Below, in pieces: positions 350-39,160 of a stretch of 64,000 nucleotides of DNA. Within the stretch, counting starts at the first letter, position 1; each line of letters opens with the position of its first letter. The stretch spans positions 96,001 to 160,000 of IMG/VR virus record IMGVR_UViG_3300015050_001523; one strand, written 5' to 3'. Position numbers and translations under genes: made by a program. The notes beneath the pieces are model-generated. The model made no database searches. It was not told where the DNA came from and was given only the letters and a program-made list of their open reading frames with translations. Source of the DNA: a virus. Lineage: Duplodnaviria > Caudoviricetes.

Positions 350-1030
350 TTATACCATAAAGATAATTTCTTCTTCAGAAGAGCAAGAACCACAAGCAAT
401 GCTAGCTGATTCTTTTGCTCGGCAAATTTGCTTACAGGAAGGGCACTTCCACTTTTTATAACCAGTTTGCACACTTGGCCGACGCTGAGACAATCCAAGA
501 AATGGAAGCTTTAAATTTTCTGGCAACTTCTTAAAAGCTTGAGAAAAATTTCCATCCTGAATGATTGAGTGATACATGCTCAATCCTGTAATTTTTGACG
601 GGCTTTTATTGTTTACTGGCCTCAGTCCAACAGCAATCATTTTTTCTGCCCATTGCTTATTATGATAACCGTTCTTTCCTGGAGAGCCGTAAAGATCTTG
701 CCAAAAATGACAAAGCTCATGAACAAAAGTTGCCATAATTTCTTCAAATGAAAAGCCGACCATTTTGGCAGGATTCATTGAAATTTCGGCCTTTTGTTCT
801 TTTCCGTCTTTTTCGATCCAAGCTCCTCGATTGTCGGACAAAAAGCCCATATAAAATCCAAGAGTTGATCGACCAGCAGTCCGCGAACAATTAAGAATTA
901 CTCGATTTTTATCTAGCTCTGAATCAAATAGTTCATCATTGAAAAAATGGAAAAGTCCGTGCCATGATTCCCACAGCTTTTCGGATGCACTTTGAGTTTC
1001 TTCTTTGGATGAATTTTCTTGTTCAGTCAT
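350..1030 (-). CDS. SprT-like zinc metalloprotease with C-terminal Zn ribbon
   Basis: TFVHELCHFWQ..GSPGKNGYHNKQWAEKM (HExxH plus downstream His) and CPSC..CGSC. Confidence 0.85.
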   Translation of the reverse strand: MTEQENSSKEETQSASEKLWESWHGLFHFFNDELFDSELDKNRVILNCSRTAGRSTLGFYMGFLSDNRGAWIEKDGKEQKAEISMNPAKMVGFSFEEIMATFVHELCHFWQDLYGSPGKNGYHNKQWAEKMIAVGLRPVNNKSPSKITGLSMYHSIIQDGNFSQAFKKLPENLKLPFLGLSQRRPSVQTGYKKWKCPSCKQICRAKESASIACGSCSSEEEIIFMV

Positions 1031-2648: not shown

Positions 2649-2924
2649 TCATCGATACGGATGCGAAATTTTTTCTGAATATATTGTTCGTTGCGTATCA
2701 ACAATTAAATTCCAAGCGGCTATGGCATCAAGTTCACTTGAGTCTCCGCTAAACCAAATTGAATAAGAATCTTTATTGCGAAATTTGCCTTTGACAAAAT
2801 AATCTCTATTTTTAGTATGTTCTGTGACCGAACAACTAATAATTTCACGAACATCTAATGCTGTTTTTTCAACAGCATTTGGAAATGAAACAATTGGATT
2901 ATCCTGAATTGTTTGATTTGACAT
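2649..2924 (-). CDS. Hypothetical protein
   Basis: ORF directly downstream of tRNA-Glu. Confidence 0.6.
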   Translation of the reverse strand: MSNQTIQDNPIVSFPNAVEKTALDVREIISCSVTEHTKNRDYFVKGKFRNKDSYSIWFSGDSSELDAIAAWNLIVDTQRTIYSEKISHPYR

Positions 2925-2925
2925 A

Positions 2926-2997
2926 TGACCTTGCTGGGACTCGAACCCAGATTAGCGGCTTGAAAGGCCACCGTCTTAACCTTTAGACTACAAGGCC
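2926..2997 (-). tRNA. trnE: tRNA-Glu(TTC)
   Basis: Acceptor GGCCTTG/CAAGGTC, anticodon arm GTGGC-CTTTCAA-GCCGC, T-loop TTCGAGT. Confidence 0.95.
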
Positions 2998-2999
2998 AA

Positions 3000-3085
3000 T
3001 TTTTGGAAATGTTTGATGAAAAACGAAAAACGAAAATAATGAAAACTTGAAAACCATTTCACAAGCTTTCCAAACATTTCCAAAA
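3000..3085 (-). ncRNA. Inter-tRNA hairpin RNA, copy A
   Basis: 15-bp terminal inverted repeat TTTTGGAAATGTTTG/CAAACATTTCCAAAA enclosing CTTGTGAAATGGTTTTCA and a U-rich tract; related copy at 19285..19378. Confidence 0.6.
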
Positions 3086-3148
3086 TTCTCGCAGTCAGTA
3101 ACGAGCTGACATCTGGCCGTCGCCGATTTTTCATTAAACTATGCGAGA
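3086..3148 (-). ncRNA. Shrunken tRNA-like RNA
   Basis: Acceptor TCTCGCA/TGCGAGA+A, D-like TAGTTTAATG, short central arm, T-like arm GTCAG-CTCGTTA-CTGAC. Confidence 0.5.
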
Positions 3149-3150
3149 AA

Positions 3151-3294
3151 TTCCTGCGACTGGACTCGAACCAGCATGTCCGCCTTAAGGAGCGTTAGTT
3201 TTACGCATGCAATTTCAATCAACGTATTATAACAAGGTAACGCGTATATGCTATAACATTGGTTGATAATAAAATTGCTTTAAACTACACAGGA
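3151..3294 (-). ncRNA. tRNA-like RNA with ~70-nt hairpin inserted in the D-loop
   Basis: Acceptor TCCTGTG/CGCAGGA, T arm GCTGG-TTCGAGT-CCAGT, D stem GTTT/AAAC interrupted by hairpin GCAATTT...AAATTGC; anticodon arm non-canonical. Confidence 0.7.
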
Positions 3295-3295
3295 A

Positions 3296-3367
3296 AGCCC
3301 GTAACCGGATTTGAACCGGTATTCCCTGCTTGGAAGGCAGGCACTCTAGCCGTTGAGTTATACAGGC
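3296..3367 (-). tRNA. trnG: tRNA-Gly(TCC)
   Basis: GCCTGTA/TACGGGC acceptor, CCTGC-CTTCCAA-GCAGG anticodon arm. Confidence 0.95.
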
Positions 3368-3378
3368 AGGCAGGCAGG

Positions 3379-3606
3379 TCAAACAGCATCAATGTATAAT
3401 AAACATGTAGAAATAAGATGATAATGGTCTTTAGATGAAGCTTCGCTAAGAAATGTCTGAATTATCTCTTCAGGAGCGCCAGCTTCTCGCAATACCTTTC
3501 TACAGGCCATTAGAGTAAGTCGTGGCCGAACATTGAGAATTGGTAGCTGAATTTTTGGTTTTGGTATATTGGTACCTGGAATCACATTTAGATTTTGTTC
3601 ATTCAT
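3379..3606 (-). CDS. Small hypothetical phage protein
   Basis: ORF between tRNA-Ile and tRNA-Gly. Confidence 0.65.
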   Translation of the reverse strand: MNEQNLNVIPGTNIPKPKIQLPILNVRPRLTLMACRKVLREAGAPEEIIQTFLSEASSKDHYHLISTCLLYIDAV

Positions 3607-3613
3607 TTGAAAG

Positions 3614-3688
3614 TCCTCCTAGGTGGACTTGAACCACCAACTTCCCGCTTATAAGACGGACACTCTGACCAAATTGAGCTATAGGAGG
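3614..3688 (-). tRNA. trnI: tRNA-Ile with TAT (UAU) anticodon
   Basis: CCTCCTA/TAGGAGG acceptor, anticodon loop CTTATAA, T-loop TTCAAGT. Confidence 0.9.
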
Positions 3689-3730
3689 GAATTATGCCTC
3701 GGAAGATTTTTTGTTCCGAGGCATGTTCTA

Positions 3731-3760
3731 ACTATATCATCGAACCATTCGCTTGTCAAG
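3731..3760 (-). promoter_or_regulatory. Sigma70-type promoter for the tRNA cluster
   Basis: TTGACA-N17-TATAGT on the minus strand, followed by hairpin ATGCCTCGGAA/TTCCGAGGCAT. Confidence 0.7.
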
Positions 3761-6986: not shown

Positions 6987-7946
6987 TCAAGGGATTAGGA
7001 AAGCAGGTTCGACATAGTTAGAGGCTTTTTTGCCTTTTTGAATATAAGTCAAAACTGCTGATTCTTTTGCCTTGCACTCGCACATTACCCAGGCACTTGT
7101 TTTATAATCAGTAACTTCTTCATAAATCCAATCTGCATGCGCCCTAGCCATCTGGTCAGGCGATTCATGATTTATTGTGGAAGAAAAATGAAATACAGGA
7201 GCAATATTGTCTGGCCATGTAGATGCCGCCATATTTGCAGCAGCTTTATGATTCATATTGCTTGAACAAAATTTGTGATGATGAACATCAAATACAATTG
7301 GAACATTTATATTCTTATAAACAAGATCATATAGATCTTTTACTGAATATTGAGAAGACTTATCATCATTTTCTATAGTTAGACGTTTTTTTGTATTTTC
7401 ATTTAGATCTTCAAATGATTTACAAAACCTTACAGCAGCTTTATCTTTTCCGTCCTGGGTTGTACTAATATGAATATTGATTTTATTCCAAACAGACGGA
7501 ACAAATCCCATCTCATCAAAAATTTGAGAATGTTGATTGAGTTCTTTTATTGTCTTGGAGATAACATTAGGATTAAGTGATGCCAAAACATTAAAATGGC
7601 CAGGATGAAAGGTTAGCCTTTGATTATATTTAGTTGCCAAATCTCCAACCAATTTCAAATTTTTTGCAATAAGGGACCAATTAGGAAGATCGGTTAGTTC
7701 GTACTCTGACATCCATGGAAATAAATTGGAGGAGATACGAAAAAATTTTATTCCATTTTTTTCATTCCATTCAACAATTTTTGCAAGATCTTTAATATTT
7801 TGCAATGCCAAATTGGATACTTTTTTATTTGAAGTCTTTTGAGCTTCAAAAGTTTTTTTAATCATTCCTCTACTTGTAAAAATTCCTTGTTCTTTTTGAA
7901 GCCTGTCATTGATGCAAGGGTATCCAAGGCGTTTATTTATTTCCAT
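6987..7946 (-). CDS. uvsE: UV-damage endonuclease (UvsE/UvdE)
   Basis: RLGYPCIN, FFRISSNLFPW, RLTFHPGHF, KINIH, RLTIENDD, IVFDVHHH, HAD, ECKAKE motifs. Confidence 0.93.
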   Translation of the reverse strand: MEINKRLGYPCINDRLQKEQGIFTSRGMIKKTFEAQKTSNKKVSNLALQNIKDLAKIVEWNEKNGIKFFRISSNLFPWMSEYELTDLPNWSLIAKNLKLVGDLATKYNQRLTFHPGHFNVLASLNPNVISKTIKELNQHSQIFDEMGFVPSVWNKINIHISTTQDGKDKAAVRFCKSFEDLNENTKKRLTIENDDKSSQYSVKDLYDLVYKNINVPIVFDVHHHKFCSSNMNHKAAANMAASTWPDNIAPVFHFSSTINHESPDQMARAHADWIYEEVTDYKTSAWVMCECKAKESAVLTYIQKGKKASNYVEPAFLIP

Positions 7947-19284: not shown

Positions 19285-19378
19285 TTAAGTGATAACTGAA
19301 AATATGAAAAGCGAAAAACCAAGAACAAGAAACGCAAGTGAAACCATTTTCACAAGAGTTTATTCAGTTATCACTTAA
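19285..19378 (-). ncRNA. Inter-tRNA hairpin RNA, copy B
   Basis: 16-bp terminal inverted repeat TTAAGTGATAACTGAA/TTCAGTTATCACTTAA enclosing CTTGTGAAAATGGTTTCAC and a U-rich tract. Confidence 0.6.
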
Positions 19379-31304: not shown

Positions 31305-31419
31305 TGAGGATAGGCGAGATAAAGGAAAGACCAAGGGGCTCTGCCAAGAACCAAGGTCACTATTTCCAGGAACACGCAAGCTGGCAGGCTTTCTCCCGGG
31401 TTCGAATCCTGGATCCTCA
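31305..31419 (+). ncRNA. tRNA-like RNA (acceptor plus T arm, ~80-nt non-canonical interior)
   Basis: TGAGGAT/ATCCTCA stem stacked on CCGGG-TTCGAAT-CCTGG; internal CTGCCA/TGGCAG and GAAAG/CTTTC helices. Confidence 0.65.
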
Positions 31420-31426
31420 TTTTTGA

Positions 31427-31547
31427 CGGTATGAGACGAATAGGAGCACGTCTGCACCAAGCCACCCCGGTGCAAGAGATCTAAAGATCTATGCGAAAGC
31501 TAAGGATTTATTTAGATTTATAGTTGGTTCGAATCCAGCCATATCGA
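31427..31547 (+). ncRNA. Elongated tRNA-like RNA (10-nt anticodon-position loop, long variable arm)
   Basis: CGGTATG/CATATCG acceptor, GACG/CGTC D stem, GCACC-AAGCCACCCC-GGTGC arm, long hairpin capped GCGAAAGC, GTTGG-TTCGAAT-CCAGC T arm. Confidence 0.75.
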
Positions 31548-35772: not shown

Positions 35773-36003
35773 TCATCCTTGCCAATTGCGCGGACGTGGA
35801 ACCGGCGGATCGTGCGGGTGTGGCTGGGCTTGAATAACAACCACTTCTGGCAAGAACCAGGACAAGTGTCCCGATGCCATGTTATAGCCAGCCAACCTTC
35901 CGCGCTCGTCGTAACGTGTTAGTCGCTTGTGTTTGGCACCGCTCCAAAACATATCTCCGTCTACAAGCTCGGACAGTGGAACTTTGATTGGGTCAGTCAC
36001 CAT
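35773..36003 (-). CDS. Cassette ORF
   Basis: Downstream of a minus-oriented element. Confidence 0.6.
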   Translation of the reverse strand: MVTDPIKVPLSELVDGDMFWSGAKHKRLTRYDERGRLAGYNMASGHLSWFLPEVVVIQAQPHPHDPPVPRPRNWQG

Positions 36004-36137
36004 CTAATAATGCCAGAAGAAAGACAGGATGCAAGCAGACTTAATGATTTATTTTTTGCCGTGCCAAGGCACGGCTCATGCATGATGCTTGTTATTAATT
36101 AAGATTTTAATGCTAAATGCGCCAAAGGCGCTTCTTT

Positions 36138-36323
36138 TCAGTCGGACTTGCGCTTTGTGTCGGCCGCAATTTGAATCGCTCGTGCCGCAGCCGTAATTGC
36201 TGACAAGACGGCCGGCAACTGAGTAACTGCGAGAAAGCTCAGATCGCTGGCGAGCTTGCCGTATTTGCGAGCAGCATCCGCGATCTCCTTTTGAGTTTCG
36301 TTGTTGAGTATTGGATCAGCCAT
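36138..36323 (-). CDS. Cassette ORF, leaderless
   Basis: TTGCAT-N16-CATTAT-N6-ATG. Confidence 0.65.
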   Translation of the reverse strand: MADPILNNETQKEIADAARKYGKLASDLSFLAVTQLPAVLSAITAAARAIQIAADTKRKSD

Positions 36324-36484
36324 AAGCTAATAATGCCAGAAGAAAGACAAGATGCAAGTACCTTCTGTCTATATTTATTTATTCCGCGCCTTTGGCGCTT
36401 GGCATCCTTTATGCATGAAAGTTTTTATTAATTAATTAATAACGGAACCTTAAATGAAAAAGGCGCTTTATGCGCCTTTTCAAA

Positions 36485-39058: not shown

Positions 39059-39160
39059 TGCACCAAATAGGATTTGAACCTATATCCCTCCAGACAACGC
39101 TGGTAGCACTTAATTCTTGCAAAAATCAGTGCAGTGCTTTACCCATTAAGCTATTGGTGC
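39059..39160 (-). ncRNA. Atypical 102-nt tRNA (8-nt anticodon loop and 33-nt extra arm, or tRNA-Ile(GAT) with ~30-nt insertion)
   Basis: GCACCAA/TTGGTGC acceptor, GCTT-AATGGGTA-AAGC D arm and ATAGG-TTCAAAT-CCTAT T arm are all canonical. Confidence 0.75.

What the first reader, a model, noticed from the sequence alone, without database searches (positions are those of the whole stretch)
3151..3294. tRNA-like RNA with a ~70-nt hairpin inserted in the D-loop
Seen: acceptor, D and T stems pair well, but the D-loop carries a long, well-paired hairpin (GCAATTT/AAATTGC, ATCAAC/GTTGAT, TGTTATAGCA/TGTTATAATA). Removing it leaves about 74 nt, and the anticodon arm does not form a canonical 7-nt loop. 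The gene abuts tRNA-Gly with a 1-nt gap. Inference: either a non-canonical intron at an unusual position or a functional mimic with a protein-binding extension.
Basis: partly seen in the sequence, partly recalled or inferred. Interest (0 to 1): 0.75.

Follow-up and report, generated by a model that had tools for sequence, protein, structure and literature searches.

The report
Asparagine-tRNA-derived, non-decoding phage small RNA
A giant freshwater phage carries, inside a tRNA operon, a 144-base RNA gene derived from an asparagine tRNA that has a 70-base hairpin growing out of its D-loop and no usable anticodon, so it is most likely a non-decoding tRNA look-alike built like the long-known but still unexplained 'species 1' RNA of phage T4, not a tRNA with an intron.

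Summary
There is a 7-bp acceptor stem, a 5-bp T arm with loop UUCGAGU, and a 4-bp D stem enclosing a 70-nt hairpin of 25 bp (dG -20, z -4.6). The anticodon-position arm can only form a 6- or 8-nt loop. One base separates the element from tRNA-Gly.

The intron reading is not supported:
- there is no bulge-helix-bulge at the hairpin base;
- the phage has no splicing endonuclease or RtcB;
- removing the hairpin still leaves no decodable tRNA.

The body derives from tRNA-Asn. Its T-arm plus acceptor 21-mer occurs in five bacterial genomes, always inside tRNA-Asn(GUU). The GUU anticodon and the G73 discriminator are lost.

The layout matches T4 species 1 RNA (rnaC, 139 nt), whose function is unknown. 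It is acceptor, short D-like stem around a long hairpin, short hairpin with a 6-nt loop, then T arm. There is no sequence homology to rnaC.

I found no homolog of this element anywhere and no RNA data. Conservation and expression are therefore untested, and a recently disabled gene remains possible.

This scan has reported similar tRNA-shaped, non-decoding phage RNAs before, both in this genome and in others.

Verdict: a new member of a known but unexplained kind, of moderate interest.

The parts
3151..3294 (-). The whole tRNA-shaped RNA gene (144 nt, here TL1), from acceptor position 1 at 3294 to discriminator A at 3151
   Evidence: Fold z -3.66. Found by ARAGORN only in intron mode, with an implausible model. 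No Rfam hit at E <= 10.
3288..3294 (-). Acceptor stem, 5' strand (UCCUGUG). It pairs with 3152-3158 (CGCAGGA).
   Evidence: 7 of 7 pairs, one U.G, probability 0.87-1.0.
3282..3285 (-). D stem, 5' strand (GUUU). It pairs with 3198-3201 (AAAC) and is preceded by U8 A9.
   Evidence: Direct reading. Probability is only 0.2-0.35 in the ensemble, but G10-C25, Y11-R24, U8, A14, A21 and A15/U48 are all in tRNA register.
3209..3278 (-). 70-nt hairpin ('rod') inserted between D-loop positions 16 and 17: 25 bp in three helices, with a 14-nt apical loop at 3235-3248 that contains the palindrome ACGCGU
   Evidence: dG -20.0, z -4.6, 0 of 500 shuffles as good. Three strand-specific G.U pairs; the plus strand gives only -11.1. 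Not repeated elsewhere in the genome.
3181..3194 (-). Arm in the anticodon position: 4 bp (CGCU/GGCG) with a 6-nt loop CCUUAA. No 7-nt loop, U33 or GUU is possible.
   Evidence: Direct reading; probability 0.34-0.39. Aligns to CUGUUAA of bacterial tRNA-Asn.
3159..3175 (-). T arm: GCUGG / UUCGAGU / CCAGU
   Evidence: Probability 0.82-0.91. Together with the acceptor 3' strand it forms a 21-mer found only in tRNA-Asn genes of five bacterial genomes.
3296..3367 (-). tRNA-Gly(UCC), immediately upstream with a 1-nt spacer and no encoded CCA
   Evidence: ARAGORN; Rfam 67.2 bits.
3085..3149 (-). Neighbouring 65-nt mini tRNA-like module, 1-2 nt after TL1: an 8-bp closing stem with a 5-bp arm (GUCAG/CUGAC, 7-nt loop) abutting its 3' strand. 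It shares UAGUUUAA with TL1.
   Evidence: Folds. The spacer 2999-3150 as a whole has z -5.27.
2999..3085 (-). 87-nt hairpin with a 15-bp closing stem, between the mini module and tRNA-Glu
   Evidence: Folds.
2925..2998 (-). tRNA-Glu(UUC), the downstream end of the ORF-free RNA array
3613..3688 (-). tRNA-Ile(UAU), the first gene of the putative operon
3731..3759 (-). Best promoter-like site of the region (TTGACA, 17 nt, TG, TATAGT; 11 of 12), 43 nt upstream of tRNA-Ile
   Evidence: This is a consensus match only; the number of such sites in the region does not exceed the shuffle expectation.

Best explanation
TL1 is a tRNA-Asn-derived gene for a non-decoding, tRNA-shaped small RNA of the phage T4 'species 1' type.

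Inferred steps:
- It is transcribed with tRNA-Ile, a small ORF, tRNA-Gly, two further structured modules and tRNA-Glu as one operon.
- Its intact acceptor/T-arm minihelix, with U at -1, makes it an RNase P substrate. Cutting at its 5' end frees it and also trims tRNA-Gly to a 1-nt trailer.
- The next module's 5' cut defines its 3' end.
- The host CCA enzyme may then extend it, since the phage encodes neither CCA ends nor a CCA enzyme.

The 70-nt hairpin stays in the mature RNA. It projects from the D-loop corner of an otherwise tRNA-like L-shape.

The RNA cannot read codons, and it lacks the marks for charging with asparagine. Its job after release is unknown. The most likely class of role is tRNA mimicry: binding or diverting a tRNA-recognising protein of the host or the phage.

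Shown here: the anatomy, the tRNA-Asn ancestry, the absence of intron features, and the shared layout with T4 rnaC. Inferred: transcription, processing, stability and any function.
For: Anatomy:
- The acceptor stem, T arm and hairpin are robust and better than chance.
- The hairpin is far better on the tRNA-sense strand, -20.0 against -11.1, through three G.U pairs. That points to an RNA-level structure rather than a DNA palindrome.

tRNA core kept in register (direct reading): U8, A14, A21, A15/U48, G10-C25, Y11-R24, G53-C61 and U54-U55-C56-G57-A58. The hairpin sits in the naturally variable part of the D loop, between positions 16 and 17.

Ancestry:
- The 21-mer of T arm plus acceptor 3' strand occurs in 5 of 185,579 species genomes, each time inside tRNA-Asn(GUU).
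- The body is 54-55 of 74 identical to those genes and 52 of 74 to E. coli tRNA-Asn.

Context:
- It lies in a 454-nt stretch (2925-3378) with no ORF of 50 aa or more on either strand, in a dense genome, and on the same strand as the flanking tRNAs with 1-2-nt spacers.
- A strong promoter-like site lies upstream.

Parallel with T4: rnaC (139 nt, in the T4 tRNA cluster) folds as a 7-bp acceptor, a 3-bp D-like stem around a 60-nt hairpin, a 10-bp hairpin with a 6-nt loop, and a T arm. T4 RNAC and RNAD are real, late-accumulating RNAs of unknown role (PMC3014915; PMC9697503).

Recurrence: three more oversized acceptor-plus-T-arm elements occur in this window. Others lie in related jumbo phages, at L020:4940-5120 and L002:8823-8970.
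Against: - No homolog of TL1 was found, so there is no covariation or conservation evidence that selection keeps it.
- The neighbouring ORF is an orphan.
- The nearest relative's locus carries different tRNAs and an HNH endonuclease instead.
- Nothing here bears on whether the RNA is made.
- The D stem and the anticodon-position arm are not the minimum-energy pairing.
- A covariance model of TL1 gives T4 rnaC only 9.1 bits (E 0.68), less than ordinary T4 tRNAs. The likeness is therefore one of layout, not descent.
- A young pseudogene would show the same intact helices.
Confidence: 0.58

Rival explanations
1. It is a dead tRNA-Asn gene. A hairpin-forming sequence inserted into the D loop and the anticodon loop then decayed. 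The RNA has no role and survives only because the event is recent.
For: - The anticodon loop and discriminator have lost the asparagine marks.
- The phage already has a canonical tRNA-Asn(GUU) elsewhere.
- The element is a singleton with no homologs.
- It sits in a variable, endonuclease-visited region.
Against: - Every helix is intact: 7 of 7, 5 of 5, 4 of 4 and 25 of 25 pairs. The tertiary-core positions are also kept.
- The hairpin is not a perfect, fresh palindrome. Its imperfections within helices are all RNA-compatible G.U pairs.
- The hairpin is not a repeated or mobile sequence in this genome.
- Several other non-decoding tRNA-shaped genes exist in the same phage and its relatives, and T4 keeps such genes.
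Confidence: 0.2
2. It serves only as processing punctuation. The tRNA-like shape recruits RNase P and RNase Z so that tRNA-Gly, the neighbouring modules and tRNA-Glu are released from the operon transcript. The released RNA itself does nothing.
For: - Spacers to the flanking modules are 1-2 nt, so a cut at the TL1 5' end defines the tRNA-Gly 3' end.
- There is no encoded CCA and no phage CCA enzyme.
- RNase P recognises the tRNA domain, and T4 tRNAs mature from dimeric precursors (PMC11143913).
Against: - A plain tRNA or a short minihelix would do this job. It does not explain a 25-bp hairpin or the retained D stem and core.
- It was not tested here.
Confidence: 0.13
3. It is an intron-bearing tRNA. 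The hairpin is cut out and the halves are rejoined, for example by the phage's own RNA ligases, to give a 74-nt tRNA.
For: - The insertion is compact and lies at a D-loop site where archaeal non-canonical introns are known (my own knowledge).
- The phage encodes an Rnl1-like ligase and two to three Rnl2-type ligase domains.
Against: - There is no bulge-helix-bulge at the junction.
- The phage has no splicing endonuclease, no RtcB and no RNase III.
- No group I or II intron or ribozyme family matches.
- The product would still have a 6- or 8-nt anticodon loop without U33, no GG in the D loop, and no GUU or G73.
- The ligases are the usual phage tRNA-repair set (PMC7824862).
Confidence: 0.03

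Closest known systems
Bacteriophage T4 species 1 RNA (rnaC, 139 nt; NC_000866 70908-71046), with its neighbour species 2 RNA (rnaD)
   Same: - It lies inside a phage tRNA gene cluster, on the tRNA strand, abutting other RNA genes.
- The size is similar, 139 against 144 nt.
- The layout is the same: a 7-bp acceptor stem, a short D-like stem enclosing a 60-70-nt hairpin, a second short hairpin with a 6-nt loop in the anticodon position, and a canonical T arm next to the acceptor 3' strand.
- Neither can decode, and the function of rnaC is unknown (PMC3014915, PMC9697503).
   Different: - There is no detectable sequence or profile homology.
- TL1 keeps an obvious tRNA-Asn body with a U8-A9 linker, a 4-bp D stem and a perfect acceptor stem. 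T4 rnaC has two U.U mismatches in the acceptor and a 3-bp D-like stem with no linker.
- T4 rnaC is experimentally shown to accumulate. TL1 is a prediction.
Bacterial tRNA-Asn(GUU), for example in Streptomyces, Kribbella, Actinomycetales and a Verrucomicrobiota SAG (L034-L038), and in E. coli
   Same: - The T arm and acceptor 3' strand are identical over 21 nt.
- The acceptor 5' strand differs by one transition that keeps pairing (C6 to U).
- U1-A72, U8, A14, A21 and UUAA in the anticodon-loop position are shared.
- Identity is 52-55 of 74 once the hairpin is removed.
   Different: - A 70-nt hairpin sits in the D loop.
- GCG replaces G18G19.
- The anticodon loop has 6 or 8 nt and lacks U33 and G34.
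- The discriminator is A, not G.
- It is not recognised by the Rfam tRNA model or by default ARAGORN.
Archaeal tRNAs with non-canonical (including D-loop) bulge-helix-bulge introns
   Same: A structured insert interrupts the D loop of a tRNA-shaped gene.
   Different: There is no BHB motif, no endonuclease or RtcB in the genome, the setting is a bacteriophage, and the spliced product would not be a working tRNA.
YrlA-type bacterial and phage Y RNAs (Rfam RF02553) that accompany Ro60
   Same: A tRNA-mimicking non-coding RNA in a phage that also encodes a TROVE/Ro60 protein.
   Different: - The topology is opposite. In YrlA the RNA ends form the Ro-binding stem and the acceptor-like helix is closed by a loop. 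In TL1 the ends form the acceptor stem.
- There is no Rfam match.
- The Ro60 gene lies about 80 kb away.

Membership tests
Canonical decoding tRNA (Rfam RF00005), specifically tRNA-Asn | 7-bp acceptor stem and a 5-bp T arm with a UUCRANY loop | tested here: met
   the 21-mer is shared with tRNA-Asn genes.
Canonical decoding tRNA (Rfam RF00005), specifically tRNA-Asn | 5-bp anticodon stem with a 7-nt loop, U33, a purine at 37 and anticodon GUU | tested here: not met
   Only a 4-bp stem with a 6-nt loop CCUUAA, or 3 bp with 8 nt, is possible.
Canonical decoding tRNA (Rfam RF00005), specifically tRNA-Asn | D loop of 7-11 nt with G18G19 | tested here: not met
   The D loop is 80 nt including the hairpin, and GCG replaces GG.
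Canonical decoding tRNA (Rfam RF00005), specifically tRNA-Asn | Scores above the family threshold (29 bits) or is called by a tRNA finder | tested here: not met
   No RF00005 hit even at E <= 10. ARAGORN in default mode finds nothing. In intron mode it gives an implausible Asp(AUC) model.
Canonical decoding tRNA (Rfam RF00005), specifically tRNA-Asn | Discriminator G73, an asparagine identity mark (established knowledge for E. coli AsnRS) | tested here: not met
   The discriminator is A (3151), against G in all seven compared tRNA-Asn genes.
Intron-containing tRNA (BHB type, or group I) | Bulge-helix-bulge motif spanning both exon-intron junctions | tested here: not met
   My own scan found no BHB at the hairpin base. 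The one strict arrangement in the element lies near the tip, against 5.5 expected in shuffles.
Intron-containing tRNA (BHB type, or group I) | Splicing endonuclease and RtcB-type ligase available | tested here: not met
   PF01974 and PF01139 are absent from the 93%-complete phage genome, and the controls responded. The host genome is unknown, so this covers the phage only.
Intron-containing tRNA (BHB type, or group I) | Removing the insert yields a canonical tRNA | tested here: not met
   The 74-nt body keeps the defective anticodon arm. Brute-force deletions gave only scattered, mutually inconsistent ARAGORN calls.
Intron-containing tRNA (BHB type, or group I) | Self-splicing intron or ribozyme fold | tested here: not met
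   No Rfam family matches at E <= 10 over 2850-3750. 70 nt is too short for a group I intron (established knowledge).
T4 species 1 RNA (rnaC) type phage stable RNA | Encoded within a phage tRNA cluster on the tRNA strand | tested here: met
T4 species 1 RNA (rnaC) type phage stable RNA | Acceptor stem and T arm framing a long hairpin in the D position and a short non-anticodon hairpin | tested here: met
   Folds of both RNAs.
T4 species 1 RNA (rnaC) type phage stable RNA | Sequence or profile homology to rnaC | tested here: not met
   The TL1 covariance model gives rnaC 9.1 bits, E 0.68, below ordinary T4 tRNAs. BLAST against 50,697 phage records gives only short T-arm matches.
T4 species 1 RNA (rnaC) type phage stable RNA | Accumulates as a discrete stable RNA released by RNase P | not testable with these tools
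   No RNA run holding this phage was available to lay on the stretch.
tmRNA | G3.U70 alanine mark, a tag reading frame and pseudoknots | tested here: not met
   Pair 3-70 is C-G. ARAGORN calls no tmRNA and Rfam gives no hit.
YrlA / bacterial Y RNA | RNA ends form a Ro60-binding stem and the tRNA-like domain is circularly permuted | tested here: not met
   The ends form the acceptor stem. There is no RF02553 hit.

The most novel reading that the evidence does not exclude
TL1 is a selected tRNA-Asn mimic. It keeps U1-A72 and the L-shaped core but hides the anticodon, and its 25-bp rod is a handle. Together they would bind or divert a tRNA-recognising factor during infection. Candidates are a host tRNA-targeting defence nuclease, the Asn-tRNA transamidation machinery, or the phage's own Ro60 and RNA-repair proteins. 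If so, it would give a first function to the T4 species-1 class of RNAs.
Probability: 0.12. Interest if true: 0.75.

Novelty: new member of a known kind. Interest (0 to 1): 0.36.

Why it matters
Phage T4's species 1 and 2 RNAs have had no known function for about fifty years. TL1 is an independent example of the same layout, with no sequence relation to them, and it shows clearly how such an RNA arises: a tRNA-Asn gene gained a D-loop rod and lost its anticodon.

It sits in a jumbo phage that also carries several other tRNA-shaped non-decoders, RNA ligases of the tRNA-repair type and a Ro60 homologue. That supports the idea that non-decoding tRNA look-alikes are a recurrent, convergent phage invention and not a T4 oddity.

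On the practical side, tRNA finders and Rfam miss it or mis-call it. ARAGORN in intron mode reports a false tRNA-Asp with an intron, so such genes distort phage tRNA and intron counts.

Tried and rejected
Homolog searches, all empty:
- exact 25-mer of the 3' end in IMG/VR;
- the tRNA-Gly 3' 24-mer as an anchor in IMG/VR;
- two gapped patterns in 241 million metagenome records;
- blastn against GenBank phages, which gave only 24-28-nt T-arm matches at E >= 2;
- a covariance model of TL1 over 24 related jumbo-phage records, which gave only ordinary 72-nt tRNAs at 15 bits, and over T4 and three relatives' loci.

Synteny route:
- The 75-aa neighbour has no relatives in IMG/VR.
- The 91-aa neighbour is an orphan among 5.8 billion protein clusters.
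- The 294-aa neighbour has 76%-identical relatives, but their loci hold tRNA-Ile(UAU), tRNA-Arg(UCU) and an HNH endonuclease, with no room for TL1. One of these contigs came without DNA.

Expression: no RNA holder was listed.

Laid DNA contigs:
- One freshwater run holds 151-nt contigs identical to 2973-3123 and 3192-3342, with no variants.
- It may be the source sample, so it is at most weak support against an assembly artefact.
- The other runs matched only the flanking tRNAs.

Brute-force deletion of every 20-104-nt segment followed by ARAGORN gave 206 inconsistent calls across about 30 anticodons, which is not informative.

- GCGUUA (52-57) is complementary to UAACGC (98-103).
- That is not beyond chance. 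Six or more Watson-Crick pairs occur in 6% of loop shuffles, and the duplex energy is matched in 16%.

Rejected readings:
- A tRNA-Lys decoy. The loop resembles CUCUUAA minus U33, but nothing else matches the phage's tRNA-Lys genes.
- A tmRNA. A GCA-started 10-codon frame exists in the hairpin, but 3-70 is C-G.
- A phage attachment site. The element has a full 5' half, not just a tRNA 3' fragment.
- A repeated or mobile hairpin. There is no second copy in the genome.

Full report
**Setting.** The window is bases 96001-160000 of a 322.5-kb IMG/VR virus record (93% complete, 33.6% G+C). ARAGORN finds 37 canonical tRNA genes covering every amino acid except histidine. DNA contigs identical to parts of the locus occur in a freshwater metagenome. 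This is a freshwater jumbo phage. All tRNAs near the finding are on the minus strand, so the finding is read as the reverse complement, with RNA position p at window coordinate 3295 - p.

**The observation.** It is correct in every particular.
- The 144-nt RNA has a 7-bp acceptor stem (1-7/137-143) and discriminator A.
- It has a 5-bp T arm with the canonical loop UUCGAGU, the linker U8-A9, and a 4-bp D stem (GUUU/AAAC).
- Inside the D loop sits a 70-nt hairpin (positions 17-86, window 3278-3209) of 9 + 6 + 10 bp, interrupted by a 2-nt bulge and a 3x1 internal loop and capped by a 14-nt loop.
- The hairpin alone is 4.6 sd more stable than dinucleotide shuffles (0 of 500 as good). The whole RNA has z -3.66.
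- The hairpin holds three G.U pairs, so it is much weaker on the other strand (-11.1 against -20.0 kcal/mol). That argues for an RNA structure on the tRNA-sense strand and against a DNA palindrome.
- The arm in the anticodon position pairs only as CGCU/GGCG with a 6-nt loop CCUUAA, or as 3 bp with an 8-nt loop. No register gives a 7-nt loop.
- tRNA-Gly(UCC) ends at 3296, one base before the element.
- The stretch 2925-3378 carries no ORF of 50 aa or more on either strand.
- Caveat: the D stem and the anticodon-like arm compete with alternative pairs that are 3.7 kcal/mol better in the nearest-neighbour model.

**What it derives from.**
- With the hairpin removed, the 74-nt body resembles tRNA-Asn.
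- The 21-mer made of the T-arm 3' part and the acceptor 3' strand occurs exactly in only five of 185,579 species genomes: three actinomycete lineages, an Actinomycetaceae MAG and a Verrucomicrobiota SAG.
- In every one of those it lies in a tRNA-Asn(GUU) gene.
- The body is 54-55 of 74 identical to those genes and 52 of 74 to E. coli tRNA-Asn.
- The alignment places the hairpin between D-loop positions 16 and 17, the naturally length-variable part of the loop at the outer corner of the tRNA L-shape.
- U8, A14, A21, the A15/U48 pair, G10-C25, Y11-R24, G53-C61 and U54-U55-C56-G57-A58 remain in register.
- What has changed is the decoding and identity end:
  - CUGUUAA has become CCUUAA, with U33 and G34 gone;
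  - the discriminator G73 has become A;
  - G18G19 reads GCG.
- The phage has a separate, canonical tRNA-Asn(GUU) elsewhere.

**Is the hairpin an intron?** The evidence says no.
- A scan for the bulge-helix-bulge geometry (3-nt bulge, 4-bp helix, 3-nt bulge on the other strand, flanked by helices) finds nothing at the base of the hairpin. The one arrangement it finds lies near the tip, against 5.5 expected in shuffled sequence.
- Rfam reports no intron, ribozyme or other family over 2850-3750, even at E <= 10.
- The phage genome has no tRNA splicing endonuclease, RtcB, RNase III or CCA-adding enzyme, and the control genomes responded for each.
- It does encode an Rnl1-like ligase and Rnl2-type ligase domains. 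These are the usual jumbo-phage tRNA-repair set (PMC7824862).
- Above all, excision would not yield a working tRNA.
- ARAGORN's intron-mode call (tRNA-Asp AUC with a 59-nt intron) has a 3-bp D stem with a G.U pair and an invented anticodon arm. It is an artefact.

**What it resembles.**
- Following a lead from earlier notes of this scan, I fetched the T4 tRNA cluster and folded rnaC, the species 1 RNA.
- The plan of rnaC is:
  - a 7-bp acceptor stem with two U.U mismatches;
  - a 3-bp D-like stem enclosing a 60-nt hairpin;
  - a linker;
  - a 10-bp hairpin with a 6-nt loop in the anticodon position;
  - a canonical T arm.
- TL1 has the same plan at nearly the same size, 144 against 139 nt, and the same genomic setting: inside the tRNA cluster, on the same strand, abutting neighbours.
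- There is no homology. The TL1 covariance model scores rnaC at 9.1 bits, below ordinary T4 tRNAs.
- T4 RNAC and RNAD are real RNAs that accumulate late, and their roles are unknown (PMC3014915; PMC9697503).
- TL1 is not alone in this phage. The window holds three more oversized acceptor-plus-T-arm elements, at 31305-31419, 31427-31546 and 39060-39160.
- Related jumbo phages carry others at L020:4940-5120, with identical copies in L013 and L021, and at L002:8823-8970.

**Local array.**
- Downstream of TL1, after 1-2 nt, comes a 65-nt module (3149-3085). It has an 8-bp closing stem and a 5-bp, 7-nt-loop arm abutting its 3' strand, a miniature acceptor/T-arm arrangement. It shares UAGUUUAA with TL1.
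- Next comes an 87-nt hairpin (3085-2999), and then tRNA-Glu. The spacer as a whole has z -5.27.
- The best promoter-like site of the region (11 of 12, with an extended -10 TG) lies 43 nt upstream of tRNA-Ile. No terminator-like site was found between 2200 and 5000.
- I therefore infer one operon transcript: tRNA-Ile, a 75-aa ORF, tRNA-Gly, TL1, the mini module, the hairpin and tRNA-Glu.
- It would be cut into pieces by tRNA-processing enzymes, as for the dimeric T4 precursors (PMC11143913). This is inference; nothing here shows transcription.

**Conservation.**
- This is the weak point. I found no homolog in IMG/VR, in 241 million metagenome records, in GenBank phages, or in 24 related jumbo-phage records.
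- The flanking small ORFs are orphans.
- The nearest relatives, at 76% identity in the 294-aa neighbour, have a different tRNA set and an HNH endonuclease at this locus.
That is not beyond chance (p about 0.06).

**Verdict.**
- The intron reading is not supported. The mimic reading is plausible but unproven.
- Most likely (about 0.58) TL1 is a tRNA-Asn-derived, non-decoding small RNA of the T4 species-1 type, released by tRNA-processing enzymes with its hairpin retained.
- Alternatives are a recently disabled tRNA gene (about 0.2), pure processing punctuation (about 0.13) and a spliced tRNA (about 0.03).
- It is a new member of a known but functionally unexplained kind.
- This scan has already met comparable tRNA-shaped phage RNAs in this genome and in others. 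Those notes were used only as leads.

Noticed in passing
window 3085-3149 (-): A 65-nt miniature tRNA-like module 1-2 nt after TL1. It has an 8-bp closing stem (UUCUCGCA/UGCGAGAA) and a 5-bp arm (GUCAG/CUGAC) with 7-nt loop CUCGUUA abutting the 3' strand. Its 5' part shares UAGUUUAA with TL1.
   Followed up: partly
window 2999-3085 (-): An 87-nt hairpin with a 15-bp perfect closing stem, directly before tRNA-Glu. The whole 152-nt spacer folds with z -5.27. An earlier first-reader note says a similar element lies at 19285-19378; I did not check that.
   Followed up: partly
window 39059-39160 (-): A 102-nt tRNA-like gene. Rfam tRNA scores 56 bits with about 33 extra nt in the anticodon region. 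ARAGORN calls it only in intron mode, as Gln(UUG) with a 30-nt intron. No clean 7-nt anticodon loop is visible.
   Followed up: partly
window 31305-31419 and 31427-31546 (+): Two tandem oversized (115 and 120 nt) elements with perfect 7-bp acceptor stems and canonical T arms. ARAGORN does not call them.
   Followed up: no
window 2649-2924 (-): The ATG of a 91-aa ORF starts immediately after the last base of tRNA-Glu, with no room for a ribosome-binding site. The protein has no relative among 5.8 billion protein clusters. It is either a leaderless message made by tRNA processing or not a gene.
   Followed up: partly
L030:1283-1744, and the 12.4-kb JGI contig of P0002: In the closest relatives (76% identity in the 294-aa protein) the equivalent locus holds tRNA-Ile(UAU), tRNA-Arg(UCU) and an HNH endonuclease gene. 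The tRNA island is therefore a variable, endonuclease-visited region, like segB in the T4 tRNA cluster.
   Followed up: partly
L020:4940-5120 (identical in L013 and L021); L002:8823-8970: Related jumbo phages carry 181-nt and 148-nt RNAs with tRNA-type acceptor stems and T arms around large structured interiors. The first lies directly after the homolog of the 294-aa gene.
   Followed up: partly
L019:6750-7141; L004:3642-3716; L009:1300-1374; L028:1896-1970 and 2403-2479: ARAGORN predicts a permuted tmRNA in one related phage and CUA-anticodon (amber-reading) tRNAs in three others. That hints at stop-codon reassignment or suppression in this phage group.
   Followed up: no
genome C1:71154-71774, 35777-36376, 165831-166394, 180821-181048 (outside the window): The phage encodes an Rnl1-like RNA ligase, Rnl2-type ligase domains and a TROVE/Ro60-domain protein, together an RNA-repair and RNA-quality-control toolkit. 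It has no CCA-adding enzyme, RtcB, RNase III or splicing endonuclease.
   Followed up: partly
window 6987-7946 (-) and 350-1030 (-): A UvdE UV-damage endonuclease (Pfam E 4.8e-58) and a SprT-like metalloprotease flank the tRNA island.
   Followed up: no
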